From NCBI GenBank assembly GCA_036796575.1, contig DAIRCR010000002.1, positions 21,020-85,019 of the forward strand: a stretch of DNA of 64,000 nucleotides, read 5' to 3'. Shown one piece after another: positions 8,610-64,000 of the stretch; positions within the stretch are counted from its first letter, which is position 1, and the number at the start of each line of letters is the position of its first letter. The translations under genes and the position numbers were made by a program. This stretch comes from Candidatus Nanopelagicales bacterium. Lineage in GTDB: Bacteria; Actinomycetota; Actinomycetes; S36-B12; UBA5976. The notes below the pieces were generated by a model. The model was not told the DNA's origin. It ran no database searches and saw nothing but the letters and a program-made list of their open reading frames with translations.

Positions 8610-8627
8610 TTCCTAGAAAGTAAATAC

Positions 8628-9524: not shown

Positions 9525-9526
9525 TC

Positions 9527-46207: not shown

Positions 46208-46242
46208 AGTTTTCACCCGGACGGCCTGTCGAGCGTAAGCGG

Positions 46243-46279
46243 CAGGACGTCGCGGGTTCAAGTCCCGTCACTCACCCCA
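46243..46279 (+). repeat. perfect 37-nt direct duplicate of the tRNA-His 3' part (46171-46207): att-site-like scar
   Basis: caggacgtcgcgggttcaagtcccgtcactcacccca occurs twice, separated by 35 nt. The second copy has no matching 5' acceptor strand or D-arm, so it is not a tRNA. Confidence 0.9.
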
Positions 46280-46309
46280 TTAAATGATCAACCTGCTAGG
46301 TTTTGGATC

Positions 46310-50063: not shown

Positions 50064-52913
50064 TTATGCCTTAGTCAAAACAGATTCAAGCGAATTCGTT
50101 GGTGCTTCACTCGAATCAGCTGGGCGAATTTCAACGGCTGTTACTTTGAATTCTGGACAGTTTGTCGCCCAGTCTGAAAACTCAGTTGTAATGACATTTG
50201 CCCCACTGGTTGGGTGGTGGAATGTTGTGTGAACTACACCAGCCGGGACACGATCGCTCACAAGTGCAGTCAGAATAGTTTCGCCAATTCGACTCGACAC
50301 TGCAATCTTTTGACCATCAGCAATTCCGCGCATTGCAGCATCTGCCTCATGAATTTCTAGAACATCTTCTGGATGCCAAGTAACGTTTGCGGTTCGACGG
50401 GTTTGAGCGCCAACGTTGTACTGGCTCAAGATACGACCTGTTGTTAGCAGGAGTGGGAACTTACGATTTGAACGCTCTTCAGTTGGCACAAATGGGGTTT
50501 CCATAAATTGACCCTGTCCACGTACGAAACCTTCAACGTGCATGATTGGTGTTCCGGTTGGAGCCGCATCATTACATGGCCATTGCACGCTGCCAACTTC
50601 ATCAAGCATTGCAAAGCTAACGCCTTTGAAAGTTGGTGTGATTTCTGCAATCTCGTCCATGATCTGAGCGGCATTGTCATAGTGCATTTCATAACCCATG
50701 GCCTGCGATAGTTCACAAATGATTTGCCATTCCTGCTTGCCATTCTTAGCGGCCATTACCGGACGCACGCGGTTGATGCGTCGCTCGGCATTGGTGAAGG
50801 TTCCATCCTTTTCCAGGAATGAAGTTCCTGGCAGAAATACATGCGCAAACTTTGAAGTTTCATTCAAGAACAAGTCCTGTACTACAACCAGATCCATCGC
50901 CTTAAGCGACTTTTCCACGTGCATAGTGTTTGGGTCAGATTGTGCGATGTCTTCACCATGTACAAACAGCCCACGGAATTCGCCAGAGATCGCATTGTCG
51001 AACATGTTTGGAATTCGCATGCCTGGATCAGACATGAGTTTTACGTCCCAAAGCATTTCAAACTGTTCGCGAACCGCATTGTCAGAAACATGTCGATAGC
51101 CCGAAAGCTCGTGTGGGAAGGATCCCATGTCGCATGCGCCTTGCACATTGTTCTGGCCGCGGAGTGGGTTAACTCCAACGCCATCGCGGCCGATGTTTCC
51201 GGTAGCCATCGCTAGGTTTGCCATACCCATAACCATGGTTGAACCCTGGGAATGTTCGGTAACTCCTAAACCGTAGTAAATCGCAGCATTCTTGCCAGTG
51301 GCATACATGCGCGCGGCCTGACGAATGGTTTCGGCTGGAACTCCAGATTGTGCTTCTACTACTTCTGGGCTGTTCTCCGGAAGTTCGATGAATTTGCGCC
51401 AGCGATTAAACGGTCCTGGATCGCAACGTTCGGCCACAAACTCTTCATCAATCAAGCCTTCAGTTGCGATGACATGTGCAATTGCATTAACCACTGCCAC
51501 GTTGGTTCCTGGCTGTAGTTGTAAGTGATGATCAGCCTTAATGTGTGCTGATTCAACAAGATCAATCTTGCGCGGATCAATAACAATTAAGTTTGCGCCT
51601 TCGCGGATGCGGCGCTTCATGCGAGAGGCAAATACTGGATGAGCGTCAGTTGGATTCGCGCCAATAACCACGATTACATCAGTCTTTGCTACTGACTTAA
51701 AGTCCTGAGTTCCAGCGGAAGTTCCAAACGTAGTGCTTAAGCCATATCCAGTTGGTGAGTGGCAAACGCGAGCGCAGGTATCAATATTGTTATTTCCAAA
51801 AGCAGCGCGAACCATTTTTTGTACGACAAAGATTTCTTCATTGGTACATCTTGACGAGGAGATTCCACCAATGCTGTTATCGCCATACTTTTCTTGAATC
51901 GCCTTTAGCTTGGTCGCGGTGTATTGAATTGCTTCATCCCACGAAACTTCACGCCATTCATCGGTAATCTTCTCGCGAAGCATTGGCTTCGTGATGCGAT
52001 CTGAATGCGATGCGTAACCCCAAGCAAAGCGGCCCTTAACACAACTGTGACCTTCATTGGCTCCACCAGTTTTTGTAGGGACCATTCGAACTAATTCGTC
52101 GCCACGTAATTCAGCATTAAACGAGCAACCAACACCGCAGTAAGCACAAGTGGTTTGAACGGTGCGAGTTGGCATTCCAAGATCAATTACTGACTTTTCT
52201 TGCAAAGTTGCAGTTGGGCAAGCCTGAACGCAAGCTCCACAGGAAACACATTCACTAGAAAGGAAGTTCAAGCCACCAGGACTTACCTTCGAGTTAAAGC
52301 CACGGCCTTCGATGGTTAGTGCGAGAGTTCCTTGAACTTCATCACAAGCGCGAACGCATCGATTACAAACAATGCATTTGCTTTCATCGAATGAGAAGTA
52401 AGGATTTGAAGCATCAGTTGGAGCATCTAGGTGATTCTTGCCATCCATGCCGTAGCGAACTTCGCGAAGTCCAGCTACTCCAGCCATGTCTTGTAGTTCG
52501 CAATCGCCATTAGCGGAGCAAGTCAAGCAATCAAGTGGATGGTCGGAAATGTAAAGTTCCATGACATTCTTACGAAGTCTGGCTACCTTGGTGGTTTGGG
52601 TGCGCACAACCATGCCGTCTTCTACTGGAGTTGTGCATGATGCTGGGGTACCACGACGACCATCGATTTCAACGATGCACATACGGCAAGAACCAAATGG
52701 CTGAAGTGAATCTGTGGCACAAAGTTTTGGAATATCACAGCCAGATTCTCCGGCAGCACGCATTACCGAAGTACCTTCAGGAACTAAGTGAGTTTCACCA
52801 TCAATCGTGACGCTAACCATGACATCAGAGTTTGATTTTGGGGTGCCGTAATCTGCTTCACCGATACCAGAGCGCATCGGCATAGTTCCGCGTGGATCTG
52901 AAAGTAATGTCAT
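50064..52913 (-). CDS. fdsA: NAD-dependent formate dehydrogenase alpha subunit (Mo-bisPGD, NuoG-like N-terminus)
   Basis: It has N-terminal 2Fe-2S and 4Fe-4S Cys clusters (CATD..C..C, CIVCNRCVRAC, CVSCGACVQAC, CAYCGVGC). The Mo-ligand Cys context is SSSRCTNEE, so it is not Sec. ATG 52913 shares 1 nt with the fdsB TGA. Confidence 0.92.
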   Translation of the reverse strand: MTLLSDPRGTMPMRSGIGEADYGTPKSNSDVMVSVTIDGETHLVPEGTSVMRAAGESGCDIPKLCATDSLQPFGSCRMCIVEIDGRRGTPASCTTPVEDGMVVRTQTTKVARLRKNVMELYISDHPLDCLTCSANGDCELQDMAGVAGLREVRYGMDGKNHLDAPTDASNPYFSFDESKCIVCNRCVRACDEVQGTLALTIEGRGFNSKVSPGGLNFLSSECVSCGACVQACPTATLQEKSVIDLGMPTRTVQTTCAYCGVGCSFNAELRGDELVRMVPTKTGGANEGHSCVKGRFAWGYASHSDRITKPMLREKITDEWREVSWDEAIQYTATKLKAIQEKYGDNSIGGISSSRCTNEEIFVVQKMVRAAFGNNNIDTCARVCHSPTGYGLSTTFGTSAGTQDFKSVAKTDVIVVIGANPTDAHPVFASRMKRRIREGANLIVIDPRKIDLVESAHIKADHHLQLQPGTNVAVVNAIAHVIATEGLIDEEFVAERCDPGPFNRWRKFIELPENSPEVVEAQSGVPAETIRQAARMYATGKNAAIYYGLGVTEHSQGSTMVMGMANLAMATGNIGRDGVGVNPLRGQNNVQGACDMGSFPHELSGYRHVSDNAVREQFEMLWDVKLMSDPGMRIPNMFDNAISGEFRGLFVHGEDIAQSDPNTMHVEKSLKAMDLVVVQDLFLNETSKFAHVFLPGTSFLEKDGTFTNAERRINRVRPVMAAKNGKQEWQIICELSQAMGYEMHYDNAAQIMDEIAEITPTFKGVSFAMLDEVGSVQWPCNDAAPTGTPIMHVEGFVRGQGQFMETPFVPTEERSNRKFPLLLTTGRILSQYNVGAQTRRTANVTWHPEDVLEIHEADAAMRGIADGQKIAVSSRIGETILTALVSDRVPAGVVHTTFHHPTSGANVITTEFSDWATNCPEFKVTAVEIRPADSSEAPTNSLESVLTKA

Positions 52914-54457
52914 CACTTCACCTCTACCTTTATACCAAAATCTGCAGGGAATAACTTGAGTGCGCTTCGAACTGGCAGTGGCGTTAAGCCACCCATTGCA
53001 CATAGTGAGCCATCAGTCATGACTTCGCATAAATCTTCAAGAAGTTCAAGGTTTTTGGCTTGCTCTTCACCGGCAACAATGCGATCAATAACTTCAACGC
53101 CTCGGGTTGAACCAATTCGACAAGGTGTGCACTTGCCGCAAGATTCTTCGGCACAAAATTCCATTGCAAAGCGAGCTTGCTTTGCCATGTTCACAGTGTC
53201 ATCAAAAACCACGATGCCGCCGTGGCCCAGCATGCCGCCAACTTCAGCTAAGGATTCATAACCCATTGGAACGTCCCATGATTCGACACCAAGGTAAGCG
53301 CCAAGTGGCCCCCCAATTTGAACCGTCTTAATTGGTCGTCCACTATGAGTGCCGCCGCCAACTTTGTTCACCAGATCGCCAAGTGTGATTCCAAATGGAA
53401 GTTCAACTATGCCACCACGCAAAATGTTTCCAGCCAGTTGGAAAACTTGAGTTCCGCGCGAACGATCCACTCCAAATGATTGATACGAAGCTGCGCCATC
53501 AGCCAGAATCATTGGCACAGCTGCCAAAGTCATTACGTTATTGATAACAGTTGGCTTGCCAAACAATCCAACTAGAGCTGGGATCGGTGGCTTGGCACGA
53601 ACCATGCCACGCTTTCCTTCCAAGCTCTCCAACATTGCGGTTTCTTCACCGCAAACATAACTGCCGGCGCCAACACGAACTTCTAAATTGAATTTGAATC
53701 CAGAACCAAGAACTGAATCTCCAAGTATTTTGCTTTCATTTGCAATCTCAATTGCTTGATTCAAAACATCAATTGCATGTGGGTATTCAGATCTGACATA
53801 GATCAAGCCTTGAGTCGCACCTACTGCGATTCCAGCAATGATCATGCCTTCGATCAAGGTGAAAGGGTCGCCTTCCATCAGCATTCGATCGGCAAAAGTT
53901 CCACTGTCACCTTCATCGGCGTTACAGCAAATGTATTTTTGATCAGACTCTGTGTTTAGAACCGTTTTCCATTTGATGCCTGCCGGAAAACCTGCTCCAC
54001 CACGTCCGCGAAGTCCAGATTCAGTAACTTCATCAACAATTTTTGCTGGGCTCATCGCAATTGCATTACGCAAACCTTTAAGTCCACCGTTGACTTCGTA
54101 ATCCACCAAGGAAAGCGGATCGGTAACGCCAACCCTGGCAAAAGTTATTCGAGTTTGATTCTTAAGGAAATCCAATTCTTCGACAAGTCCTATGCAAGAG
54201 TCATGTGCACTTCCAGACAGTAGTCCAGCAGCAATCAGCTCAGGTACCTGATCAGCCGAAACATTTGCGTAGCCAACTCTTCCAGTCTCAGTTTCAACTT
54301 CGACTAGTGGCTCAAGCCAAAGCATGCCGCGGGAACCATTTCGTACAACTGTGACATCAAGTCCACTTTTGGTTGCCTGATCGGAAATTGCCTGAGCGAC
54401 TTCATTTGCTCCCATTGATAGTGCTGCCGAGTCCATAGGGACGAAAACTTTTGTCAT
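52913..54457 (-). CDS. fdsB: NAD-dependent formate dehydrogenase beta subunit (NuoF-like, FMN/NAD/4Fe-4S)
   Basis: Motifs GLRGRGGAGFP.G.KW, ADEGDSGTF and ESCGKCTPCR. Confidence 0.92.
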   Translation of the reverse strand: MTKVFVPMDSAALSMGANEVAQAISDQATKSGLDVTVVRNGSRGMLWLEPLVEVETETGRVGYANVSADQVPELIAAGLLSGSAHDSCIGLVEELDFLKNQTRITFARVGVTDPLSLVDYEVNGGLKGLRNAIAMSPAKIVDEVTESGLRGRGGAGFPAGIKWKTVLNTESDQKYICCNADEGDSGTFADRMLMEGDPFTLIEGMIIAGIAVGATQGLIYVRSEYPHAIDVLNQAIEIANESKILGDSVLGSGFKFNLEVRVGAGSYVCGEETAMLESLEGKRGMVRAKPPIPALVGLFGKPTVINNVMTLAAVPMILADGAASYQSFGVDRSRGTQVFQLAGNILRGGIVELPFGITLGDLVNKVGGGTHSGRPIKTVQIGGPLGAYLGVESWDVPMGYESLAEVGGMLGHGGIVVFDDTVNMAKQARFAMEFCAEESCGKCTPCRIGSTRGVEVIDRIVAGEEQAKNLELLEDLCEVMTDGSLCAMGGLTPLPVRSALKLFPADFGIKVEVK

Positions 54458-54927
54458 GCGGTCACCGCCGAGGTTGCGGCAAAGATTTTTTCACAAGTTG
54501 CTCTGCCAATTGGTGCGCCATTGACCATAGCTGCAGGGCCTAGAGCGCAATTACCTAAGCAAAATGTCTGTTCCATTTGGATGTCATCCTTGATGTTTCC
54601 CTTATGGATGTCATAGCCCTTGTCATGTAGTTCGCTTATAAGGCTTGCACTGCCTGATGCTTGGCAGGCTTCCGCAACGCAAACCTTGACTACTGCCTTT
54701 GCAGGTGGTGTTGATCGGAAGTCACTATAGAAAGTGAAGACGCCATAAACCTCAGCGCGCGAAACATTGGAATTCTTCGCAATTATGTCCAAAGCGCTAT
54801 CGGGTACGTAGCCAAGGAGTTCCTGCACAAGTTGCAATGAGCGCAGAACTGCAGATCCATCCCCTTTGTAAGGTCCTAAGTAATTAAGGATGCTTTCTTC
54901 CGAGAAGTTACTCACTTGGCACTCCAA
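54454..54927 (-). CDS. fdsG: NAD-dependent formate dehydrogenase gamma subunit (NuoE-like 2Fe-2S)
   Basis: It has the Cys pattern C..AC...(G)...CLGNCALGP. There is a 4-nt overlap with fdsB. The start is TTG 54927 or GTG 54915, and both overlap the DUF1638 gene. Confidence 0.85.
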   Translation of the reverse strand: MECQVSNFSEESILNYLGPYKGDGSAVLRSLQLVQELLGYVPDSALDIIAKNSNVSRAEVYGVFTFYSDFRSTPPAKAVVKVCVAEACQASGSASLISELHDKGYDIHKGNIKDDIQMEQTFCLGNCALGPAAMVNGAPIGRATCEKIFAATSAVTA

Positions 54928-55501
54928 TTAGTTTTAACAGTTGTTCTTCAAGGTGCTTGTCGCCCACTTGGATGATTTCAAGTGGTAATCCGATTAATTC
55001 AGCAGCGTCTTTTGCGGCAGCTTCTAGTTCAGGAGTTTGATGTTGAGCTAGCCATAAAACTCTTTTGTAGGAATGAAAGTAGTCATCGCGCAATTCTGGG
55101 TAACGGTCTAAGCCCATTTCTGTCATGACGCTTCGGCGAAAAGTCTTAACCAAGTAATCAGTGAATACATACGTCCCCGGAACGGCCTCAAACTCAGCTT
55201 TCATTCTTTCAGCAGTTGCAAATACGTCATAGCAATGGTCACCTGATAAGCGCGAGACTTGATACTTATCGCAAAGTGCATCTATCGCCCCATAAGTTCC
55301 ACAATCTGCGTATGCAATCGCTACTTGATCATGAGTTGGTTGTAATTCCAGAATCATTTTTTCAACTTCAGGTGCAATTCCCTCAGGGCGATTGTGCAGT
55401 AATGGGTTTATTGGCTCGATGCGTAATGTCAGATTTCGACGATCGGCAATTTCGTGCACGTGGGCTGCCAGTGCACCGCAAGCTATAACTGCAACGCTCA
55501 T
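54908..55501 (-). CDS. DUF1638-like protein of unknown function
   Basis: 197 aa. The N-terminus VIACGALAAHV, the motif YADCGTYGAIDA and GDHCYD match my recollection of DUF1638. It overlaps both neighbouring genes. Confidence 0.55.
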   Translation of the reverse strand: MSVAVIACGALAAHVHEIADRRNLTLRIEPINPLLHNRPEGIAPEVEKMILELQPTHDQVAIAYADCGTYGAIDALCDKYQVSRLSGDHCYDVFATAERMKAEFEAVPGTYVFTDYLVKTFRRSVMTEMGLDRYPELRDDYFHSYKRVLWLAQHQTPELEAAAKDAAELIGLPLEIIQVGDKHLEEQLLKLIGVPSE

Positions 55502-57366
55502 GACGGCAGCGCCAGCTCCAAGAAGAACTTGTCATTGAAATCTGGGCGATCGGAAAGCTCCACATAATCAACTTCATCCAGCAAAGTTGTTGCGCCACTT
55601 CGCTCTGTGCTGGAAAGCAGAACCATCTTTGCGCCTTCGCCTGCAACGTTTCCAGCACTAACGATGCGCATCACTGGAAGTTTTGGAACAAGCCCAATGC
55701 CAATTGCCGAAGCAGGTGACAAGTAAGAACCAAATGAGCCAGCTAACAAAACCTGCTGAACATCGTCATCCACAAGGCCTACTTCTTCAAGCAGTAAGCG
55801 CCATCCGGTAGCAATCGAAGCTTTTGCGAATTGAAGTTCGCGAACATCGCGCTGCGACAAGTAAACCGTTGGCTCTTCGCCATCCCAATGTAGGACGAAG
55901 ATTCGATCTCCAGCTTCCCGAGTCAACAAGCGTGACGCTAAATGTGGAGCAATCTTCATGGCGTCTTCATCTGTGACAAATCTGCCTGAGTCATCAATCA
56001 GTTTTGCTTTGTGCAATACATAAACGGCATCAACCAGGCCAGAGCCACAAATGCCTACTGGAGTTGTATCTCCGATGACTCCAAGTTTGATTCCTTCGTC
56101 AGTAACTTGAACAACTTCAATAGCGCCATCAGCTGCGCGCATACCGCAAGCAATCGAGGCAGCTTCAAATGCTGGGCCAGCTGGCGCAGCAGTTGTAAGG
56201 ATTTGATCGCCATTGGAAAGTACGATTTCGCAGTTAGTGCCAACATCAATCAACAGGCGAACTCGCTTATCGCGATCCATGCCAGTTGCTAGGACACCAG
56301 CAACGATGTCGCCACCAACGTATGCGCCAAAGGCTGGGAATAAGAAGACTCGTGCTGATGGCAATAGTTCAATGCCGATTTCAGCCGCTGTAAAGATCGG
56401 CCATTTCTGAGCAGCAGTAATGAACGGTGCAACACCAACTGGCTCTGGATCTACGCCAAGCAAAATCTCAACCATTGTGGCGTTACCAGCGATCGCAATT
56501 TCATAAACCTGGTCTGCTGAGACTTCAGCCTCAGTACAAACCTCTGCAATCAGTTCATTCAATGTGGCAAGGCCAGCAGTTTGCATCAAACCAGCTGCTA
56601 ACGGATCCATCATGGTTGCTGAAATTCGTGAGATTACGTCGGCGCCAAATGGCTGCTGCTTATTCAGCATTGACTTAACTGCCATAGGAGTTCCGGTAAC
56701 TAGGTCTAGCAGGGTTGCTACAACAGTCGTAGTTCCAAGGTCGATGCCAATTGCATAGTTTTGCGCCGAGGTATCCCCTGGCTCGACAGCAATCAAAGCT
56801 TCATTCACAACAACTGCAGTGACTTTGAAATCGTTCTTGCGAAGAACAGTTGGAAGTGTCTTTAGAACTGAGAGATCGGCCTCAAATTCCAAGTCATCCA
56901 TAGCATCGCGTAACCGATCAATGTCCGGGCGCTGATCGTGAAGGGTTGGTTCAATAAGTTCTACATAACGCTTTTGAACTGCCGGTCGCAGAATTACTTG
57001 GCGTCCAACACCAACGGTTGCTGCTTTTGGACGAGTTGAAAGTGGCGGAACATCAACCTTTAGATTTCCATTTGCGCGAGCCACACATGCCAAACGCCAG
57101 CCATCGGCTAGTTGTTCTGGGCTGAAAGCTCGAATATCCAAGCGTGAAACCGGAACTTCACCCTCGATAACTTGGATCTTGCACTTCTTACAAGTTCCAT
57201 GGCCACCACAGGTTGAGTCAATCGCTAAACCGTTCCAGGAAGCAGCATCAAAAACAGTGACACCAGGTGGCACTCGAACATCAGTTCCACTTGGTGTGAA
57301 CTGTAATTGAACGCGACCAAGCCCACTGACAGTTGTGTCAGCCTTTGTGCTTTCTTCGTTTGGCAC
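55498..57366 (-). CDS. RACo-type ATP-dependent corrinoid reductive activase (N-terminal plant-type 2Fe-2S ferredoxin + ASKHA ATPase, DUF4445)
   Basis: GTG start. The ferredoxin Cys motif is STCGGHGTCKKCKIQV...LAC. ASKHA phosphate motifs are GIDLGTTT and DVGTN.E. 622 aa. Confidence 0.8.
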   Translation of the reverse strand: MPNEESTKADTTVSGLGRVQLQFTPSGTDVRVPPGVTVFDAASWNGLAIDSTCGGHGTCKKCKIQVIEGEVPVSRLDIRAFSPEQLADGWRLACVARANGNLKVDVPPLSTRPKAATVGVGRQVILRPAVQKRYVELIEPTLHDQRPDIDRLRDAMDDLEFEADLSVLKTLPTVLRKNDFKVTAVVVNEALIAVEPGDTSAQNYAIGIDLGTTTVVATLLDLVTGTPMAVKSMLNKQQPFGADVISRISATMMDPLAAGLMQTAGLATLNELIAEVCTEAEVSADQVYEIAIAGNATMVEILLGVDPEPVGVAPFITAAQKWPIFTAAEIGIELLPSARVFLFPAFGAYVGGDIVAGVLATGMDRDKRVRLLIDVGTNCEIVLSNGDQILTTAAPAGPAFEAASIACGMRAADGAIEVVQVTDEGIKLGVIGDTTPVGICGSGLVDAVYVLHKAKLIDDSGRFVTDEDAMKIAPHLASRLLTREAGDRIFVLHWDGEEPTVYLSQRDVRELQFAKASIATGWRLLLEEVGLVDDDVQQVLLAGSFGSYLSPASAIGIGLVPKLPVMRIVSAGNVAGEGAKMVLLSSTERSGATTLLDEVDYVELSDRPDFNDKFFLELALPS

Positions 57367-57391
57367 GTTTTATCTCTCGCTTAGTTTGAAA

Positions 57392-58243
57392 TTACGCTTC
57401 TTTATTTGCGCGGAAACTGGTGATCCAATTTGCGCCCCACTGGTCTAATCCAAGAAGTAGGTCGGCTGCGCGAACTGCCTGGACAACTTCTGGAGTACGG
57501 CCATCCATGATTGCTGAGGTCAGACCCATTGACATTGCCATCGGCATGAAAGCTGCATTTAACGCGTGACGATTTGGCAGACCGAATGAAACATTGGATG
57601 CACCGATCGACATGTTTAAGCCGTACTTTTCTTTAATCAAGTAGATCGTTTCAAGGGTGTTCTTGGCATTTTCTGGATCAGCACCAACTGGCATGGCAAG
57701 TGGATCAATCAGAAGGTTATCTAGTGAGATGCCTTCTTTTTCAACGCGTCGCACAATCTTTTCCACAATTACCATGCGGTCTTTGGCAAGCATTGGGATT
57801 TCAATTTCATCATTTGGCAGTGCCAAGATGGCAGCGTCATATTTCTTAACCAAAGGAAGGATGATGTCCATGCGCTCGTCTTCACCAGTCATTGAGTTAA
57901 CCAGTGCTTTTCCTTCATATACGGCCAGACCAGCATCAAGTGCTTCAATTACAGATGAGTCAATGCAGATTGGCAGGTCAGTCAGTGACTGAACTAGCTT
58001 GATGGCCCGGGCTAAAAGTGCTGGTTCGTCAGTAAGTGGCACACCCATGTTCACGTCAAGCATGTCGCAGCCACCAGCAACCTGGTCAGCAACGTCAATG
58101 TTGATAGTTGAAAGATCATCAGCACGAAGCTTTTCCTGGAACAATTTGCGGCCAGTCGGATTCAGGCGTTCGCCAATGATTACGAATGGTAAGTCGTGAC
58201 CCATCGTTACTGTTTTTGTGGCGGAACTAAGCACTGTATGCAT
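57392..58243 (-). CDS. methyltetrahydrofolate:corrinoid methyltransferase (pterin-binding TIM barrel, MtgA/AcsE/MetH-domain-like)
   Basis: The segment FVIIGERLNPTGRK...GCDMLDVNMG is a pterin-binding signature. ATG 58243 has AAGGA upstream and gives a 17-nt overlap with metF. Confidence 0.8.
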   Translation of the reverse strand: MHTVLSSATKTVTMGHDLPFVIIGERLNPTGRKLFQEKLRADDLSTINIDVADQVAGGCDMLDVNMGVPLTDEPALLARAIKLVQSLTDLPICIDSSVIEALDAGLAVYEGKALVNSMTGEDERMDIILPLVKKYDAAILALPNDEIEIPMLAKDRMVIVEKIVRRVEKEGISLDNLLIDPLAMPVGADPENAKNTLETIYLIKEKYGLNMSIGASNVSFGLPNRHALNAAFMPMAMSMGLTSAIMDGRTPEVVQAVRAADLLLGLDQWGANWITSFRANKEA

Positions 58244-59183
58244 GGTCGTCCTTTACTTCGTTAGTTGTTGCATTGTTGGTTGTTATCTCGCGAACTCGGC
58301 CAAGATCTGTCATTAGTCGTTCTAAAGTGTCGTCATTTCTAAAATCAGTAATGTGTAAGCCACGTACTGCCGGTTGCGCCAATGCGTGCTGGGCAAACTC
58401 CAAAGTCTGCAAATACGCTTCTTCGGCTGGATCAGCTGCCTTTTCCACGCGAGCAATTTGATCAGCAGGAACATCAATACCAGGCACACTGTTGTGCATA
58501 AAGTTCAGTGGCCGAGCTCCCTTAACCAAAACAACGGTTGGAATGATTGCGATTTTGCCAGCAAGGCCAGCATCGCGAACTCCAGCACAGAATTTTTCTA
58601 GCCGATCTTGGTGATAACAAATCTGAAGCTGCAGGAACTTTGCGCCTGCTGCGTACTTCTTTGCAACGCGTTGCACTCGGTACTCAAACGGTGGAGCGCC
58701 AGGATTTTCAACTGCGCCAATAAACATGTGCGGAGCTGGATCAATTTTGCGACCAGACATGTACTCGCCACGTTTAATTGTGCTCATTAGGCGAACAAGT
58801 TGTGGGCCATCTAAATCAAAAACTCTACGAGCTTCGGTTTCATCACCGGCAGTTACGTCATCACCCGTAAGTGCAACATAATTTTCTACGCCAAACATCG
58901 AGGCGCCCATGATGTCGGCTTGTTGGGCTAGGCGATTCTTGTCGCGGCACACAACCTGCAAGATTGGCTCTAAGCCAAGTTGCTTAATTGCAATTGCAGT
59001 TGCCACGTTTGATGCGTGTGCATGCGCTGCAGTGTTGTCCGTCGCATTGACACCATCAAACCAACCACGGAACCGATCTGCATACTTCTTTGCTTTTTCA
59101 AGTCCGTTTCCATCTAGGGAATGAAATTCAGCAGTAAAAACAGTTTCAGTTGTATTCATTAACTTTTGCTCAAGAGTCGACAT
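58227..59183 (-). CDS. metF: methylenetetrahydrofolate reductase (MetF family)
   Basis: 318 aa. The stretch VNATDNTAAHAH....AIAIK..G.EPILQVVCRD.NR...Q..I.GA...G..N.VALTGDD is an MTHFR barrel signature. Confidence 0.8.
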   Translation of the reverse strand: MSTLEQKLMNTTETVFTAEFHSLDGNGLEKAKKYADRFRGWFDGVNATDNTAAHAHASNVATAIAIKQLGLEPILQVVCRDKNRLAQQADIMGASMFGVENYVALTGDDVTAGDETEARRVFDLDGPQLVRLMSTIKRGEYMSGRKIDPAPHMFIGAVENPGAPPFEYRVQRVAKKYAAGAKFLQLQICYHQDRLEKFCAGVRDAGLAGKIAIIPTVVLVKGARPLNFMHNSVPGIDVPADQIARVEKAADPAEEAYLQTLEFAQHALAQPAVRGLHITDFRNDDTLERLMTDLGRVREITTNNATTNEVKDDHAYSA

Positions 59184-59581
59184 TAATGATCAACTCCTTG
59201 CGCAACAGATTCATCAGTTGTGTTCTTCCAACCAGCTGGAGTCCAGCGATCTCTCTTAGTGAAGAAGTTCTTCCAGGATGAAGTTCCCTTTAGGCGGTTA
59301 TCAACCGGTGGACGTAAATGGTTGTATTCGTCCTTCCAAGAAGACGGCAAAGGCCAATCCTGCGTGCGGTCATAGGCCTTAAGCCAGACGCATTTCATTT
59401 CTGGCTTCACTTCGCAATGACCGTTTTCGCGCACGCCACCACATGGGCCATTGCGCAATGTCTTTGGGCAATTCATAGGGCAAGTCATGCCAGTTGAATG
59501 CAAAACACATTGCCCGCAGTCTTGGCATCCCCAAACGGGACCCTTAACTACGTGCTCAATGGTTGCGATAAAGGTTGTCAT
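59183..59581 (-). CDS. metV: MetV-like zinc/FeS-ribbon protein (methylene-THF reductase C-terminal-domain family)
   Basis: 132 aa. It has the Cys-rich segment GCQDCGQCVLHSTGMTCPMNCPKTLRNGPCGG. It shares 1 nt with the metF start. Confidence 0.7.
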   Translation of the reverse strand: MTTFIATIEHVVKGPVWGCQDCGQCVLHSTGMTCPMNCPKTLRNGPCGGVRENGHCEVKPEMKCVWLKAYDRTQDWPLPSSWKDEYNHLRPPVDNRLKGTSSWKNFFTKRDRWTPAGWKNTTDESVAQGVDH

Positions 59582-59589
59582 GGTGATGT

Positions 59590-60246
59590 TTACTGGCCGC
59601 GCTTAACGGCGATTAGTTCCTTAGCCTTGCGAACTGCAGTTGAAGCATCTGCTGCATAGCCGTCAGCGCCAACAACATCAGCGTATTCCTGGGTAACCGG
59701 AGCGCCACCAACCATGATGATTACGTCATCGCGCATACCAGCCTTGGTAATTTCATGAATGTTTACCTTGAACATTGGCATTGTGGTTGTTAGGAATGCG
59801 GACATACCAACAACGTCTGGCTGATGTTCCTTGATTGCATCAATGAACTTCTCAGGTGCACACTGCACACCGATATCAATAACTTGGAAGCCAGCGCCTT
59901 CAAGCATGATGTTTACAAGATTCTTGCCAATGTCGTGAACGTCACCCTTAACAGTTCCCATTAGGAATGTTCCTACGGTCTCAGCACCAGTGTCTGCCAG
60001 TAGCGGACGAAGCACATCTAATGCGCCACTCATGGCACGACCAGCAATCAACATTTCTGGCACGAAGTAGTCGCCGCGCTCAAATCGTGCGCCAACTTCT
60101 TCAAGTGAAGGGATCAATGCATCGAACAGGATTGAGTCAGGTGTTAGCCCTTCCTCAAGTCCCATGTGAGTTAGCTCTAGCACGCGAGGTGCATTGCCTT
60201 CCATGGTGCGTTCGTACATTTCCTTTAGAATTTCGTCGGGTGTCAT
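59590..60246 (-). CDS. corrinoid (cobalamin-binding) protein of methyltransferase systems (MtgC/MttC-like)
   Basis: 218 aa. It has an N-terminal helical cap and a Rossmann-like domain with the base-off/His-on motif GDVHDIGKN (DxHxxG). SAFLTTT and GGAP are also present. Confidence 0.88.
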   Translation of the reverse strand: MTPDEILKEMYERTMEGNAPRVLELTHMGLEEGLTPDSILFDALIPSLEEVGARFERGDYFVPEMLIAGRAMSGALDVLRPLLADTGAETVGTFLMGTVKGDVHDIGKNLVNIMLEGAGFQVIDIGVQCAPEKFIDAIKEHQPDVVGMSAFLTTTMPMFKVNIHEITKAGMRDDVIIMVGGAPVTQEYADVVGADGYAADASTAVRKAKELIAVKRGQ

Positions 60247-61010
60247 GCCGCTCCTTCTTGTTGTAAGCCTTGCACTTGGTTTAATTCTCGACGCATAAGT
60301 TGTGCAATGTGCAATTCATCGCCTGGGGTAATTCTCTCAGCCGGACCACTAACCGACAAAGCCGCGATCGCCTTGCCGTTGGCACCTAGAACAGGAATAG
60401 CAACTGCAATCAGACCTTGTTCAAGTTCGTTACGTATAACGGCGTAACCAACTTCTCGAGCTTTTCGAATGTGCTGATCAAGTAATGCGAAATCTGTGAT
60501 TGTTTCTGTAGTGCGCGGCGCCAAAGTGCTCGGCACGGTAGCTCCACCAAAGGCAATCAGAACTTTGCCGGCTGCTGAGCAATGTGATGGAACGCTTTCA
60601 CCAACCCAATTACGACTACCTAATAAGTAAGAACCTTCAACTTGAGCGATGTTGTCGATACCGGTATGTCCGGTTACCGCAAGACTGACGGTTTCGTGAG
60701 TAATGTCAGCAATTCGTTCCATGGCTGGAGTCAATGAACCAATCAATGCTGTGTAAGCGCCACCACGAACTGCAAACTGGTTTAGAACTGGACCTGCTTC
60801 AAAGCCGCCAACCGTGCTTCGGGCCAAAAGCCCACTTCGTTCCAATGCGCTAAGAATTCGAGAAGTTGTTCCCTTAGCAAGGCCGGTGGCTGCAACTAAT
60901 TCACTTAAAGTTTGCGGATCCTCCGAGTTAATAACTCGGATTAAAAGGTCACAGGCGCGATCGATAGATTGCGTTCCAGTTACTGGCTTTTCGCCTAACT
61001 CTTCGCTCAT
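60243..61010 (-). CDS. IclR-family transcriptional regulator
   Basis: It has an N-terminal wHTH (SIDRACDLL......LSELVAATGLAKGTTSRIL.ALE..G) and an IclR effector domain. An ATGA overlap joins it to the corrinoid-protein gene. Confidence 0.85.
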   Translation of the reverse strand: MSEELGEKPVTGTQSIDRACDLLIRVINSEDPQTLSELVAATGLAKGTTSRILSALERSGLLARSTVGGFEAGPVLNQFAVRGGAYTALIGSLTPAMERIADITHETVSLAVTGHTGIDNIAQVEGSYLLGSRNWVGESVPSHCSAAGKVLIAFGGATVPSTLAPRTTETITDFALLDQHIRKAREVGYAVIRNELEQGLIAVAIPVLGANGKAIAALSVSGPAERITPGDELHIAQLMRRELNQVQGLQQEGAA

Positions 61011-61072
61011 CTCGCCTCCCCCTATATAGAGGTCAAATTTCGATCTGAAGCTTTCGAGAAAGTTTCACGATC

Positions 61073-61088
61073 TGGAACCTATGTTCCA
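61073..61088. promoter_or_regulatory. perfect 6-4-6 palindrome TGGAAC-CTAT-GTTCCA in the divergent promoter region; candidate IclR operator
   Basis: Read directly. The half-site string TATGTTCCA recurs at 61183-61191, overlapping the mttB-like start codon. Confidence 0.5.
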
Positions 61089-61148
61089 CATCGTACGCTA
61101 ACATATCGGGTATTCGTCAAGCCTTTTTGATGAAAAGTTTCAACTTGT

Positions 61149-61162
61149 TATCTAACTAGATA
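61149..61162. promoter_or_regulatory. perfect 6-2-6 palindrome TATCTA-AC-TAGATA upstream of the mttB-like gene
   Basis: Read directly. It lies 8 nt upstream of the ACAGGAG ribosome-binding site. Confidence 0.4.
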
Positions 61163-61183
61163 GCCGCACAACAGGAGCCCGTT

Positions 61184-62623
61184 ATGTTCCAGAACAAAAG
61201 CCCACGTTATGAAATTCTTTCGCAGGATGCCATGGCAGTCCTGGATAAGGGTTGGCGACGCATTGTTTCCGAAATGGGAGTCGAGTTTATGCACGAGCGC
61301 GCCTTGGACCTGTTCCGCGCAGCTGGGCAAAAAGTTGAAGGTAACAACGTTAAGTTCGATCCGGATTGGATTCTGGAGCAAGTTGCAAAGGCGCCGAGTG
61401 AATTCACTTTGCAGGCACGCAACCCAGAGAAGAACGTAATCATCGGTGGCGACAACATGGTTTTTGCTGGCGTTTACGGTCCACCGTTTGTGCGCGACTT
61501 GGCTGAGCGCCGTGATGGAACTCTTAAGGACTTCCAGAACTTCACCAAGCTTGGTCACATGTTTGGTGATCTAGATGTATCGAGCAGTGTTGTAGTTGAG
61601 CCAAACGATGCCCACCTAGATACTCGTCACATCGACATGATCCACAACTTGATGACACTTAGTGACAAGCCATTCATGGGCAATGTTGTTACTGGCTTGA
61701 ATGCACGAGACACAATCAAGATGGCTGAGATTGTTTTCGGTTCTCGCGAAAGCATCGAGAAGACTCCAGCCATTATTTCTCTAATTAATTGCAACTCCCC
61801 ACTTCGCTGGGATGATCGCATGTTGGAATCATTGTTTGAATACAGCGAGGCTGGTCAGCCTTGCGTTCTAACCCCATTCCTTTTGATGGGTGCAATGAGC
61901 CCAGTAACAATTCCAGCATCTTTGGTTCAGCAAATTGCTGAAGCATTGAGTGGTATTGCATTGGCACAGCTAGTTCGCCCAGGCTGCCCAGTTGTGTTTG
62001 GTTCATTCCTTTCAAACATTGACATGCAGTCCGGTTCCCCAATGTTTGGTACTCCAGAATCAGCAATGGGTCTGCTTTGCACTGGTCAGATCGCGCGTCA
62101 CTTTAACTTGCCTTTCCGTGGTGGTGGCGGACTAAACGCGGCCCAGACTGTTGATGCTCAGGCGGGTTACCAAACCTTGATGACAATGCACGCAACATTC
62201 CTTGCAGGCACAAACTTCGTTATGCACGCAGCCGGCTGGCTTGAAGGTGGCCTCGTAGCTTGCTATGAAAAGTTTGTTATGGACGTTGAAATTCTTCAGG
62301 CCATGCAGGCTGAGTTCACTCCATTTGAAATCGATGAAGCATCCTTGGCATTCGAAGCTCACGAAGAATCGGGTCATGGTGGTCACTTCCTAGGAACCCA
62401 ACACACCATGGAGCGATTCCGCGATTGCTTCTACCGACCATTCCTGTCGTCAGCAGATAACTTCGATCGCTGGTCACGCAATGGTTCAAAGACAACAGAT
62501 GTACGTGCCAATGAAATTGCGCACAAAATGATCGAAGAGTACGAGCCTCCAGCAATGGATTCCGCAATCAAAGAAGAGCTTGACGAATGGGTCGACAAGC
62601 GCAAAAAGGAGTTATTAGCATGA
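61184..62623 (+). CDS. MttB-superfamily methyltransferase without pyrrolysine (quaternary-amine/methylamine:corrinoid methyltransferase, MtgB-like)
   Basis: An uninterrupted 479-aa ORF. Its length and N-terminal region ([12 protein letters not shown].....RI..E.GVEF....AL.LF..AG..V) fit the trimethylamine-methyltransferase family. No in-frame TAG is needed. Confidence 0.8.
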
Positions 62624-64000
62624 AATCTGATATCGATATTGCTCGGGCAGCTACAACTGAATCAATTGTTTCGGTTGCAGCAAAAATCGGTATTCCTGCA
62701 GATGCAGTTCTGAACTATGGTCCAACAAAGGCCAAGATCAATATGGAATTCATCTCCTCGCTGAAATCTAAGCCAAACGGCAAGTTAGTTCTTGTTACTG
62801 CAATGACACCTACTCCTGCGGGTGAAGGCAAAACGACAACCACAGTTGGTTTAGGTGATGGCCTTAACGCCATTGGTAAAAAGGCAATTGTTTGTCTGCG
62901 CGAACCATCCCTTGGTCCATGCTTTGGCATGAAGGGTGGTGCTGCAGGTGGCGGTTTTGCTCAGGTAGTTCCAATGGAAGACATTAACCTGCACTTCACT
63001 GGCGACTTCCATGCCATCGGTGCTGCGCATAACTTGCTATCAGCAATGCTTGATAACCACATTTACTGGGGTAACGAACTAGGCATTGACGTGCGTCGCA
63101 TCGCTTGGAAGCGCGTAATCGATATGAACGATCGCGCCTTGCGCGAAATCACTGCTGCGCTAGGTGGACCTGGAAATGGTTACCCACGTGAAGCTGGATT
63201 CGACATCACAGTAGCAAGCGAAGTCATGGCGATTCTTTGTCTAGCAATGGATCTAGACGATCTAGAGCGTCGCCTTGGAAACATTGTTGTTGGTTATACC
63301 CGCGACAAAGTTGCAATTACTGCAGCACAACTAAATGCAAATGGTGCGATGACTGTACTCCTTAAAGATGCCTTGATGCCTAACTTGGTTCAGACTCTTG
63401 AGAACAATCCGGCATTTGTACATGGTGGGCCATTTGCAAACATTGCACATGGTTGCAACACAGTATTGGCAACCCATACTGCACTAAAGCTTGGAGACTA
63501 TGTAGTTACTGAAGCTGGCTTTGGTGCCGACCTTGGTGCTGAGAAATTCTTCGACATTAAGTGTCGCAAAGCCGGCTTAGAACCAGCTGCGGCTGTAATC
63601 GTTGCAACCGTTCGAGCGCTAAAGATGCATGGCGGCGTTGCAAAGGATGATCTTGGCAAAGAAAATGTTGCCGCTGTTGAAGCAGGACTTTCAAACCTTG
63701 GTCGTCATATCCGCAACGTACAAAAGTTTGGCGTTCCAGTTGTAGTTGGTGTCAACAACTTCACAACTGATACTGATGCTGAATTTGCTGCAGTGCAAAA
63801 GTACTGCGCTGAAATGGGCGTTGACGCTATTCGCTGCACCCACTGGGCCGAAGGCAGCAAGGGCACGACTGAGCTTGCGAAAAAGGTTGTTGAAATTGTT
63901 GAAGGTGGAACTGCAGCCTTCAAGCCGCTCTACCCAGACACCATGTCACTTTGGGACAAGGTCTCGACAATCGCAACGGAAATCTATGATGCTGGCGAAG
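62620..64000 (+). CDS. fhs: formate--tetrahydrofolate ligase, N-terminal ~460 aa (3' end beyond window; absent from ORF track)
   Basis: My own translation from ATG 62620 (ATGA overlap with the mttB-like stop) is MKSDIDIA...[17 protein letters not shown]...[20 protein letters not shown]. These are canonical FTHFS motifs. Confidence 0.93.

What the first reader, a model, noticed from the sequence alone, without database searches (positions are those of the whole stretch)
61184..62623. Non-pyrrolysine MttB-family methyltransferase of unknown substrate, translationally coupled to formate-THF ligase
The ORF is uninterrupted (479 aa), so it belongs to the large non-Pyl branch of the MttB superfamily. 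Only a few substrates are known for that branch: glycine betaine, proline betaine, carnitine and gamma-butyrobetaine. Its stop overlaps the fhs start (ATGA at 62620-62623). I do not know this pairing from the characterised anaerobic systems, and it links substrate demethylation stoichiometrically to the ATP-yielding step. I cannot infer substrate identity by eye. Glycine betaine, choline-derived betaines and methylated polyamine-type compounds are all plausible for a freshwater planktonic cell.
Basis: partly seen in the sequence, partly recalled or inferred. Interest (0 to 1): 0.6.

Follow-up and report, generated by a model that had tools for sequence, protein, structure and literature searches.

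The report
Probable glycine betaine methyltransferase, MtgB-type
The gene is a cobalamin-dependent methyltransferase that most likely removes the first methyl group from the osmolyte glycine betaine, and it sits in a full betaine-to-CO2 gene island in a freshwater actinobacterium, so it is a new member of a recently described system and not an enzyme of unknown substrate.

Summary
An uninterrupted 479-aa MttB-family ORF lies at 61184-62623, and its TGA stop overlaps the fhs ATG (ATGA at 62620-62623). Leu317 (codon CTA) occupies the pyrrolysine position.

The "unknown substrate" reading does not hold. Divergently transcribed from the gene are IclR, MtgC, MetV/MetF, MtgA/D, RamA, DUF1638 and an NAD-type formate dehydrogenase.

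In 11 of 11 close relatives with enough sequence, fhs is followed by an IclR regulator, a betaine-aldehyde-dehydrogenase-like gene and an OpuA/ChoXWV-type ABC transporter. Dimethylglycine oxidase follows in 8 of 8 with room (E 2e-177 to PDB 1PJ5). Nocardioides relatives add choline dehydrogenase.

The MttB protein is the only candidate in the island for glycine betaine to dimethylglycine. The module is syntenic with the aerobic MtgBCD system of S. meliloti (PDB 4YYC) and Paracoccus (Mausz et al. 2025).

Three of the four glycine betaine contact residues of D. hafniense MtgB are invariant (Y98, R312, H348). F356 is Gly, with an invariant Trp352.

The fhs pairing is conserved in the freshwater clade but replaced by purU in sister lineages. 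Four-base overlaps are routine in this operon.

Verdict: new member of a known kind. Substrate is inferred, not assayed.

The parts
61184..62623 (+). mtgB-like gene. Non-Pyl MttB-superfamily methyltransferase, 479 aa. Proposed glycine betaine:Co(I)-corrinoid protein methyltransferase.
   Evidence: PF06253 E 2.5e-190. PDB matches: 4YYC 1e-131, DhMtgB 2QNE/9YCE 1e-119, Pyl-MttB 7XCL 1e-36. Y98, R312, H348 and W352 are invariant in 83 actinobacterial homologues. Leu317 sits at the Pyl position.
62620..64000 (+). fhs, formate-tetrahydrofolate ligase. It runs off the window end. The start overlaps the mtgB stop (ATGA). Its own SD, AAGGAG, lies at 62606-62611.
   Evidence: PF01268 E 4e-224; NF010030 at 771 bits, cutoff 652. 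The junction is conserved in relatives.
61011..61183 (.). Divergent intergenic control region. It holds a conserved palindrome at 61067-61094 (ACGATCTGGAAC-CTAT-GTTCCACATCGT), a candidate IclR operator, and the mtgB SD AGGAG at 61173-61177.
   Evidence: Inverted repeat with 12-nt arms, 92% complementary. The core is invariant in 8 relatives while the flanks diverge.
60243..61010 (-). IclR-family transcriptional regulator, first gene of the divergent operon.
   Evidence: PF09339 and PF01614. Present next to mtgB in 52 of 52 long loci.
59590..60246 (-). mtgC-like corrinoid (B12-binding) protein, the methyl acceptor of MtgB.
   Evidence: PF02310 and PF02607. The best NCBIfam match is the glycine-betaine-specific corrinoid protein MtgC (NF047996, 204 bits, below its cutoff of 370). 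43-46% identical to the S. meliloti and Paracoccus cluster MtgC.
59183..59581 (-). metV-like zinc-ribbon subunit (MTHFR C-terminal domain protein).
   Evidence: PF12225 E 1e-25. 52-57% identical to the S. meliloti and Paracoccus cluster homologues.
58227..59183 (-). metF-like methylenetetrahydrofolate reductase. Proposed to oxidise CH3-THF to CH2-THF.
   Evidence: PF02219 E 4e-25. 35-37% identical to the S. meliloti and Paracoccus cluster MetF.
57392..58243 (-). mtgA/mtgD-like methyl-corrinoid:tetrahydrofolate methyltransferase (pterin-binding).
   Evidence: PF00809. NF005719 at 297 bits, above its cutoff of 259. 42-44% identical to the S. meliloti and Paracoccus MtgD.
55498..57366 (-). RamA/RACo-type reductive activase of the corrinoid protein (2Fe-2S plus ASKHA ATPase).
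   Evidence: PF00111, PF17650, PF17651, PF14574. Present in 50 of 52 long loci.
54908..55501 (-). DUF1638 protein, the accessory protein associated with corrinoid reactivation in MtgBCD systems.
   Evidence: PF07796 E 4e-24. Named as part of the system in PMC12478193. Present in 49 of 52 long loci.
50064..54927 (-). fdsG-fdsB-fdsA-like soluble NAD-type formate dehydrogenase genes (54454-54927, 52913-54457, 50064-53003). They continue the same operon.
   Evidence: Assigned by reading the translations (NuoE-, NuoF- and molybdopterin/Fe-S-like sequences); no family search was run on them. Co-conserved with fhs-type loci, with FdsA, FdsB or FdsG in 7-8 long loci.

Best explanation
The ORF encodes the substrate-specific subunit (MtgB) of an aerobic-type, cobalamin-dependent glycine betaine:tetrahydrofolate methyltransferase system.

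Proposed mechanism:
1. MtgB binds glycine betaine in its TIM-barrel pocket. R312 and H348 hold the carboxylate. Y98 and probably W352 hold the trimethylammonium group.
2. Co(I) on the corrinoid protein MtgC (59590-60246) takes one methyl group. The products are dimethylglycine and CH3-Co(III)-MtgC.
3. MtgA/D (57392-58243) passes the methyl group to tetrahydrofolate.
4. MetF/MetV oxidise CH3-THF to CH2-THF.
5. A FolD encoded elsewhere gives 10-formyl-THF.
6. Fhs, running in reverse, releases formate and makes ATP.
7. FdsGBA oxidises formate to CO2 with NADH.
8. RamA and DUF1638 re-reduce Co(II)-MtgC after accidental oxidation.
9. An IclR regulator probably controls both divergent operons through a conserved palindrome.

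In close relatives, and by inference beyond the end of this window, the plus-strand operon continues with a betaine-aldehyde-DH-like gene, a betaine/choline ABC importer and dimethylglycine oxidase. The island would therefore take choline or betaine to sarcosine while burning the methyl groups.

Shown here: gene identities, synteny, residue conservation and junction anatomy. Inferred: the substrate, the direction of Fhs and MetF, the role of W352, and the regulator's operator.
For: 1. Family and non-Pyl status.

2. Gap-filling context.
- In 11 of 11 fhs-type relatives with at least 6 kb downstream, fhs is followed by IclR, a BADH-like aldehyde DH (TIGR01804, 576 bits, the best aldehyde-DH model but below its cutoff of 669) and OpuAA (the proV subfamily model is passed).
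- The OpuAB permease, seen in all 10 relatives with room for it, scores 361.7 against the choline-permease model (cutoff 363).
- Dimethylglycine oxidase follows in 8 of 8 with room (E 2e-177 to A. globiformis DMGO 1PJ5).
- Nocardioides-type loci add a bona fide choline dehydrogenase (TIGR01810, 853 bits, cutoff 732).
- No other large ORF that could carry out betaine to dimethylglycine is present in the island.

3. In 52 loci of at least 19 kb, MtgB co-occurs with MtgC, MtgA and IclR in 52, RamA in 50, DUF1638 in 49, OpuAA in 43, BetB in 42 and BetA in 36.

4. The module is syntenic with, and 32-57% identical component by component to, the S. meliloti and Paracoccus clusters. The S. meliloti MttB protein is PDB 4YYC. 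This is the system that Mausz et al. 2025 showed genetically to be required for glycine betaine catabolism in R. pomeroyi, and it includes RamA, DUF1638 and MetF2.

5. Y97, R312 and H348 of D. hafniense MtgB contact glycine betaine in the crystal structure (PMC13080624). Their equivalents Y98, R312 and H348 are invariant in 83 actinobacterial homologues and in 4YYC.

6. The lost F356 is matched by an invariant W352. Across 108 family representatives, an aromatic residue occurs at 352 or at 356 but never at both (45, 43 and 0).

7. Replacement of fhs by purU at the same position in 32 loci, together with formate dehydrogenase genes in the operon, argues that flux runs from formyl-THF to formate.
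Against: - No enzyme assay exists for this protein, or for any member of the Trp352 (aerobe-type) clade. In R. pomeroyi only mtgC and mtgD were knocked out, and the MtgB candidates rest on proteomics.
- The protein is only 41% identical to the assayed D. hafniense MtgB. It falls in a different subclade (NJ bootstrap 76 for a 53-member clade that holds most Trp352-type sequences and excludes DhMtgB).
- One of the four defining contact residues (F356) is not conserved.
- MtcB and MtyB are 53% identical yet prefer different betaines. Similarity alone therefore cannot fix the substrate.
- The betaine genes lie beyond the window end. They are inferred from relatives, the closest of which is 92.6% identical in DNA over 12.8 kb.
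- The AlphaFold model (mean pLDDT 79) has low confidence in several loops around the predicted pocket (234-241, 277-290, 315-319, 380-426). No coordinates were available, so pocket geometry and the role of W352 are untested.
- The binding protein's best PDB matches are weak (E 8e-20).
Confidence: 0.75

Rival explanations
1. The enzyme demethylates a different acidic quaternary amine, such as proline betaine, carnitine, gamma-butyrobetaine, phosphocholine or an uncharacterised freshwater betaine. The betaine/choline genes nearby would then serve a parallel route.
For: - F356 of DhMtgB is replaced by Gly.
- The Trp352 clade has never been assayed.
- MtcB and MtyB show that paralogues 53% identical can differ in preferred substrate.
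- R312 is conserved across members acting on other acidic quaternary amines, so it is not specific to glycine betaine.
- Bacteria with MtgCD often carry several PF06253 paralogues, presumed to act on other methylated compounds.
Against: - Across 52 long loci the gene travels with choline dehydrogenase, betaine-aldehyde DH, an OpuA-type importer and dimethylglycine oxidase.
- No genes for carnitine, proline betaine or choline-kinase (MthK) pathways were seen in these loci.
- Y98, one of the two aromatic residues said not to be conserved in MtcB, MtpB, MthB and MtyB, is invariant here.
- Without this enzyme the island has no step from glycine betaine to dimethylglycine.
Confidence: 0.13
2. The fhs adjacency is incidental or biosynthetic. 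Fhs would run forward (formate to 10-formyl-THF) for purine and C1 supply, and the overlap would only reflect genome compaction.
For: - Four-base overlaps are common here: 6 of 35 same-strand junctions in the window and 4 of 9 in the neighbouring operon.
- fhs has its own SD.
- The enzyme is reversible (general knowledge).
Against: - fhs follows mtgB in 18 loci on the same strand, and the overlap is kept down to 73% protein identity.
- In 32 other loci the same position holds purU. From general knowledge, PurU only hydrolyses formyl-THF to formate. The gene was identified at scores above the model cutoffs.
- NAD-type formate dehydrogenase genes sit in the divergent operon of the fhs-type loci.
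Confidence: 0.08
3. It is a trimethylamine methyltransferase, as automated annotation says.
For: Source names such as "trimethylamine--corrinoid protein Co-methyltransferase". Same fold as MttB, TM-score about 0.81.
Against: - There is no in-frame TAG, and Leu317 (CTA) sits at the Pyl334 position.
- TIGR02369 scores 289 bits against a cutoff of 525.
- Identity to M. barkeri MttB is only 24-25%.
- The carboxylate-binding R312 and H348 are present, where MttB has Tyr and Tyr.
Confidence: 0.02

Closest known systems
Aerobic MtgBCD glycine betaine demethylation system (Ruegeria pomeroyi; S. meliloti cluster containing PDB 4YYC; Mausz et al. 2025, PMC12478193)
   Same: - Same parts list: a PF06253 MtgB, the B12-binding MtgC, the pterin-binding MtgD, RamA, DUF1638 and a dedicated MetF.
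- Same divergent layout as S. meliloti and Paracoccus, with mttB facing mtgC, DUF1638, metV, metF, mtgD and ramA. Components are 32-57% identical.
- Same Y-R-H-W-G pocket signature as 4YYC.
- Co-location with betaine uptake and downstream demethylation genes.
   Different: - The host is a freshwater actinobacterial lineage, with Nocardioides-type relatives, and not a marine or rhizobial proteobacterium.
- An IclR regulator is inserted at the head of the operon.
- fhs or purU, and in the freshwater clade FdsGBA, are fused into the same island, so the full methyl-to-CO2 route is encoded at one locus.
- No MtgE (homocysteine-binding module) was seen in the window, so the link to methionine synthesis is untested.
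- MtgB identity is only 44-46%.
Desulfitobacterium hafniense MtgB (DSY3156; PDB 2QNE and 9YCE), the assayed glycine betaine:corrinoid methyltransferase
   Same: Same fold (TM-score 0.83-0.84). Full-length alignment at E 1e-119. Y97, R312 and H348 equivalents are conserved, with Leu at the Pyl position. It partners with a corrinoid protein and a methyl-THF methyltransferase.
   Different: - 41% identity, and a different subclade.
- F356 becomes Gly356, and Ile352 becomes Trp352.
- The host appears to be aerobic.
- Methyl groups are oxidised to CO2 and not fed to anaerobic metabolism.
Eubacterium limosum MtpB, MtcB, MtyB and MthB (proline betaine, carnitine, gamma-butyrobetaine and phosphocholine methyltransferases)
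   Same: Same superfamily and the same three-component logic, with a RamA-type activase. The conserved Arg equivalent to R312 binds the acidic group.
   Different: Those enzymes lack the aromatic pair of MtgB and sit in acetogen gene contexts. Here Y98 is invariant and the context is choline, betaine and dimethylglycine. I could not retrieve their sequences, so no direct alignment or tree placement was made.

Membership tests
MttB superfamily (Pfam PF06253) | Full-length match to the MTTB profile above the gathering score, with a TIM-barrel fold | tested here: met
   633 bits against a cutoff of 25, covering profile positions 25-499 of 500. The model matches 9YCE, 2QNE, 4YYC and 7XCL at TM-score 0.81-0.85.
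Pyrrolysine-dependent trimethylamine methyltransferase MttB (TIGR02369) | In-frame UAG (Pyl) at the position of M. barkeri Pyl334, and a score above the equivalog cutoff | tested here: not met
   Leu317, codon CTA at 62132-62134, aligns to Pyl334. 289 bits against a cutoff of 525.
MtgB sensu D. hafniense (glycine betaine:corrinoid methyltransferase) | Carboxylate-binding pair R312 and H348 | tested here: met
   R312 and H348 are invariant in 83 homologues. Their roles are defined in PMC13080624.
MtgB sensu D. hafniense (glycine betaine:corrinoid methyltransferase) | Aromatic pair Y97 and F356 for cation-pi binding of the trimethylammonium group | tested here: inconclusive
   The Y98 equivalent is present. 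Position 356 is Gly. An invariant Trp352 may substitute, since aromatic residues at 352 and 356 are mutually exclusive across 108 representatives. The geometry could not be checked: no coordinates were available and the pocket loops of the model have low confidence.
MtgB sensu D. hafniense (glycine betaine:corrinoid methyltransferase) | Groups phylogenetically with the assayed enzyme | tested here: not met
   The NJ tree places the window protein with 4YYC and Paracoccus in a 53-member clade holding most Trp352-type sequences (bootstrap 76) that excludes DhMtgB. This was a simple NJ analysis, and the deeper nodes are poorly supported.
MtgB sensu D. hafniense (glycine betaine:corrinoid methyltransferase) | [quoted passage not shown] | not testable with these tools
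   This needs purified protein and an anaerobic spectrophotometric assay.
Aerobic MtgBCD module (Mausz et al. 2025) | A PF06253 gene clustered with MtgC (B12-binding), MtgD (pterin-binding), RamA, DUF1638 and a dedicated MetF | tested here: met
   All are present at 54908-62623. They are syntenic with, and homologous to, the S. meliloti and Paracoccus clusters.
Aerobic MtgBCD module (Mausz et al. 2025) | Co-location with glycine betaine uptake genes and downstream demethylation genes | tested here: met
   This holds in relatives only, because those genes lie beyond the window end. BetB, OpuA and DMGO are present in all fhs-type relatives with room, and BetA in Nocardioides-type loci.
Aerobic MtgBCD module (Mausz et al. 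2025) | MtgC and MtgD shared with a homocysteine-binding MtgE (split methionine synthase) | not tested
   No MtgE-like gene was noticed in the window or in the 10-kb flanks of relatives. The rest of the genome was not available.
Aerobic MtgBCD module (Mausz et al. 2025) | Required for growth on, or consumption of, glycine betaine | not testable with these tools
   This needs genetics or physiology in a cultivable relative.

The most novel reading that the evidence does not exclude
The Trp352/Gly356 (aerobe-type) branch of the MttB superfamily has never been assayed. In these freshwater Actinomycetota it might act on a methyl donor other than glycine betaine, or on glycine betaine plus other betaines.

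Independently of that, the island may be a self-contained "methyl-to-CO2" energy cassette: the methyltransferase, an acetogen-type MetVF running oxidatively in an aerobe, Fhs giving substrate-level ATP, and NAD-FDH. Such a cassette would let streamlined planktonic cells use osmolyte methyl groups purely as an energy source. The oxidant for MetVF in that scheme is unknown.
Probability: 0.15. Interest if true: 0.55.

Novelty: new member of a known kind. Interest (0 to 1): 0.3.

Why it matters
If the assignment is right, cobalamin-dependent glycine betaine demethylation extends from marine proteobacteria and anaerobes to widespread freshwater and soil Actinomycetota (Nanopelagicales-type MAGs, Nocardioides, Phycicoccus, Asanoa).

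That would imply a vitamin B12 demand in these lineages. It would also mean that choline and betaine released by algae and plants feed their energy budget through THF-linked C1 oxidation.

The compact island, with its conserved operator-like palindrome, gives a clean marker set for metagenomic surveys. The Nocardioides homologues, which are 70% identical, offer a cultivable system for the first assay of an aerobe-type MtgB.

This is incremental, not surprising. The system type, its parts and its link to C1 oxidation are already published.

Tried and rejected
- **Pocket comparison by structure model.** The AlphaFold2 model reached only mean pLDDT 79, with several pocket loops below 50. The tool returns no coordinates, so the role of W352 could not be checked. 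My guess that 348, 352 and 356 lie on one helix face was not supported: DSSP shows a strand at 345-348 followed by a loop. The Foldseek search found only the expected MttB-family structures and did not discriminate between them.
- **Full phylogeny with MtpB, MtcB, MtyB, MthB, A. woodii and M. vulcani MtgB, and R. pomeroyi SPO2108/SPO2134.** I could not retrieve these sequences with the tools. The tree uses DhMtgB, 4YYC, Paracoccus, M. barkeri MttB and 101 anonymous cluster representatives. Deep nodes are weak.
- **NCBIfam.** It has no MtgB model that reported a hit. Only the Pyl-MttB equivalog matched, and below its cutoff.
- **Riboswitches.** An Rfam scan of the whole window found five tRNAs and no cobalamin, THF or glycine riboswitch.
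- **Promoter and terminator scan around the junction.** There is no terminator between mtgB and fhs. The single promoter-like hit was no more than expected from shuffles.
- **Literature.** Searches for 4YYC and for Nanopelagicales or freshwater Actinobacteria together with MttB or glycine betaine found nothing specific.
- **TMA methyltransferase reading.** Rejected (see rival explanations).
- **Missed read-through TAG.** Rejected. The ORF is full length with a sense codon at the Pyl site.
Full report
**1. Observation**

The ORF at 61184-62623 (+) is real. It is 479 aa long, starts at ATG, ends at TGA and has no internal stop. It matches Pfam MTTB (PF06253) at E 2.5e-190 over essentially the whole profile.

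The start codon is supported in three ways. A conserved AGGAG lies 7 nt upstream (61173-61177). The upstream sequence is conserved in relatives. Hundreds of database homologues are exactly 479 aa long.

The stop overlaps the start of the next gene: ATG at 62620-62622 and TGA at 62621-62623. That gene is formate-tetrahydrofolate ligase (PF01268 E 4e-224; NF010030 at 771 bits against a cutoff of 652). An AAGGAG at 62606-62611 gives fhs its own ribosome-binding site, 8 nt upstream of its ATG.

**2. Not a pyrrolysine enzyme**

Against PDB sequences the protein matches three groups:
- S. meliloti 4YYC, at 1e-131.
- D. hafniense MtgB (2QNE and 9YCE), at 1e-119.
- Pyl-containing M. barkeri MttB (7XCL), at only 1e-36.

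Pyl334 of MttB aligns with Leu317, encoded by CTA at 62132-62134. The Pyl-MttB equivalog TIGR02369 scores 289 bits against a cutoff of 525.

**3. Surroundings in the window**

A compact operon is transcribed divergently from the gene:

| Gene | Coordinates |
|---|---|
| IclR regulator | 60243-61010 |
| Corrinoid protein (best NCBIfam match is glycine-betaine-specific MtgC, below cutoff) | 59590-60246 |
| MetV-like zinc-ribbon protein | 59183-59581 |
| MetF | 58227-59183 |
| Methyl-THF:corrinoid methyltransferase (NF005719, above cutoff) | 57392-58243 |
| RACo/RamA reductive activase | 55498-57366 |
| DUF1638 | 54908-55501 |
| Three formate dehydrogenase genes | 50064-54927 |

The three formate dehydrogenase genes are FdsG-, FdsB- and FdsA-like. 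I read that from their translations and did not run a family search on them.

Downstream of the operon lie genes I read from their translations as fdhD-, mobA- and moeA-like. The locus therefore encodes the route methyl to corrinoid to THF to formate to CO2, except for FolD.

**4. What lies beyond the window end**

The window stops inside fhs, so I used relatives. A scan of one genome per species returned 80 loci. Encoding-contig look-ups gave three more.

The closest relative is L004, a Lac Pavin Actinomycetota MAG. Its MtgB is 99% identical, and its DNA is 92.6% identical to the window over 12.8 kb. In L004, fhs is followed by:
- A second IclR regulator.
- An aldehyde dehydrogenase whose best model is betaine-aldehyde dehydrogenase (TIGR01804, 576 bits, just under the cutoff of 669).
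- An ABC ATPase that passes the betaine/proline/choline proV model.
- A fused permease that sits at the choline-permease cutoff (361.7 against 363).
- An OpuAC-type binding protein.
- A protein matching Arthrobacter N,N-dimethylglycine oxidase 1PJ5 at E 2e-177.

All 11 fhs-type relatives with at least 6 kb downstream carry the aldehyde dehydrogenase and the transporter. All 8 with enough room carry the dimethylglycine oxidase. Nocardioides-type loci additionally carry choline dehydrogenase above its cutoff (TIGR01810, 853 bits against 732).

Counts among the 52 loci of at least 19 kb:

| Gene | Loci |
|---|---|
| MtgC, MtgA, IclR | 52 each |
| RamA | 50 |
| DUF1638 | 49 |
| OpuAA | 43 |
| BetB | 42 |
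| BetA | 36 |

**5. Substrate inference**

The island makes glycine betaine (BetA and BetB, or import) and consumes dimethylglycine (DMGO). It contains no BHMT- or GbcAB-like ORF. The MttB-family protein is the only candidate for glycine betaine to dimethylglycine.

This matches the aerobic MtgBCD system shown genetically in Ruegeria pomeroyi. [quoted passage not shown]

I recovered the S. meliloti cluster cited in that paper, and a Paracoccus one. They show the same divergent layout: mttB facing mtgC, DUF1638, metV, metF, mtgD and ramA. A betaine-homocysteine methyltransferase (MtgE) gene and a betaine ABC ATPase gene lie nearby in S. meliloti.

The S. meliloti MttB protein is identical to PDB 4YYC over the fragment I could reconstruct. 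All seven window components are 32-57% identical to their S. meliloti and Paracoccus counterparts.

**6. Pocket residues**

The crystal structure and mutagenesis of D. hafniense MtgB define four contacts. Y97 and F356 make cation-pi contacts with the trimethylammonium group. R312 and H348 hold the carboxylate (PMC13080624).

Here Y98, R312 and H348 are present and invariant in 83 actinobacterial homologues and in 4YYC. Position 356 is Gly, and position 352 (Ile in D. hafniense) is an invariant Trp.

I examined 108 family members: 101 cluster representatives at the 50% level plus reference sequences. An aromatic residue sits at 352 in 45 of them and at 356 in 43 of them, and never at both (Fisher 5e-15, not corrected for phylogeny). 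This fits a relocated aromatic wall, but it is not proof.

The AlphaFold model has low confidence in several pocket loops and gave me no coordinates. An NJ tree puts the window protein with 4YYC and Paracoccus in a 53-member clade (bootstrap 76) that holds most Trp352-type sequences and excludes DhMtgB.

In short, the protein works like an MtgB and belongs to the aerobe-type module, but it is not a close member of the assayed D. hafniense lineage. Sequence similarity alone would not settle the substrate, because MtcB and MtyB are 53% identical yet prefer different substrates. The context carries the argument.

**7. The fhs pairing**

The pairing is conserved. fhs follows mtgB on the same strand in 18 loci, with an ATGA or GTGA overlap in 14 of them, down to 73% MtgB identity. 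Three points temper its significance.

- In 32 related loci the neighbouring gene is purU (formyl-THF deformylase, above its cutoffs). This is a non-homologous replacement that makes formate without ATP. What is selected at this position is therefore release of formate from formyl-THF, not ATP coupling as such.
- Four-base overlaps are ordinary here. They occur at 4 of 9 junctions in the divergent operon and at 6 of 35 same-strand junctions in the window.
- Fhs would serve all three methyl groups of betaine if dimethylglycine and sarcosine oxidation deliver CH2-THF. That is my inference.

The purU replacement and the formate dehydrogenase genes together argue that Fhs runs towards formate and ATP.

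Co-location of MtgBCD with C1-oxidation genes in aerobes is already reported, although fhs and purU are not named there.

**8. Mechanism, with status of each step**

| Step | Status |
|---|---|
| Import of betaine or choline | Relatives only |
| Choline to betaine | Relatives only |
| MtgB methylates Co(I)-MtgC, releasing dimethylglycine | Inferred |
| MtgA/D forms CH3-THF | Family assignment above cutoff |
| MetF/MetV oxidise it | Direction inferred, acceptor unknown |
| FolD | Not in window |
| Fhs gives formate plus ATP | Direction inferred |
| FdsGBA gives CO2 plus NADH | Assigned by reading the translations |
| RamA and DUF1638 repair Co(II) | By homology |
| IclR acts through the palindrome at 61067-61094, whose core is invariant in 8 relatives | Inferred |

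**9. Novelty and score**

The kind of system is known, from anaerobes since 2014 and from aerobes since 2025. I found no paper describing it in freshwater Nanopelagicales-type or Nocardioides-type Actinomycetota.

What is new is modest:
- The host range.
- The packing of fhs or purU, formate dehydrogenase and the betaine genes into one island.
- The alternative positions of the pocket aromatic (Trp352 with Gly356, versus Ile352 with Phe356).

It is a new member of a known kind. Interest is 0.3. Confidence that the substrate is glycine betaine is about 0.75.

Noticed in passing
window 61067-61094: A palindrome, ACGATCTGGAAC-CTAT-GTTCCACATCGT, lies in the iclR/mtgB divergent intergenic region. 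Its core is invariant in 8 relatives (down to 73% MtgB identity) while the flanks diverge. It is a candidate IclR operator. A second conserved block, GTTCGTCAAG, lies at about 61113-61122.
   Followed up: partly
L003, L021-L083 (downstream of mtgB) versus window 62620-64000: The position after mtgB holds fhs in 21 loci and purU in 32 loci. This is a non-homologous replacement of the step from formyl-THF to formate. Loci of the freshwater fhs-overlap clade (the window's close relatives) also carry FdsGBA.
   Followed up: yes
window 58227-59581; L084 5434-7109; L085 8306-9996: A MetV (DUF5981) plus MetF pair, the type I know from acetogen MetVF reductases, sits in the methyltransferase operon of an apparently aerobic actinobacterium. 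It is also present in the S. meliloti and Paracoccus clusters. The electron acceptor for CH3-THF oxidation is unknown. Nocardioides loci instead carry a separate 282-aa MTHFR-like gene.
   Followed up: partly
MttB-family alignment columns equivalent to window residues 352 and 356: An aromatic residue at 352 and an aromatic residue at 356 are mutually exclusive across 108 family representatives (45 at 352, 43 at 356, 0 at both). The split largely follows two subclades. This suggests two alternative ways of building the cation-pi wall.
   Followed up: partly
window 13322-14509 (+): An oxidase like monomeric sarcosine oxidase or N-methyltryptophan oxidase (NF008425, 250.5 bits against a cutoff of 257). 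It could complete the sarcosine to glycine step of betaine catabolism, but it lies 47 kb from the island.
   Followed up: partly
window 46132-46279: tRNA-His (46132-46207) is followed, 35 nt later, by a perfect 37-nt copy of its own 3' end (46243-46279). This looks like an att-site scar left by an integrative element. The listed ORF 46163-46963 starts inside these repeats, so its N-terminus is probably spurious.
   Followed up: partly
window 6184-10576: A cluster of an aldehyde dehydrogenase, a small protein of unknown family, a DHDPS-like lyase and a proline-racemase-family protein, which resembles hydroxyproline-type catabolism. Assigned by reading the translations only.
   Followed up: no
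window 1430-5092 (-) and 31098-33035 (+): A 1220-aa repeat-rich, probably surface-exposed protein with a KAAAA-repeat and lysine-rich tail, and a copper amine oxidase-like gene. The latter fits an oxygen-using lifestyle. Both were assigned by reading the translations only.
   Followed up: no
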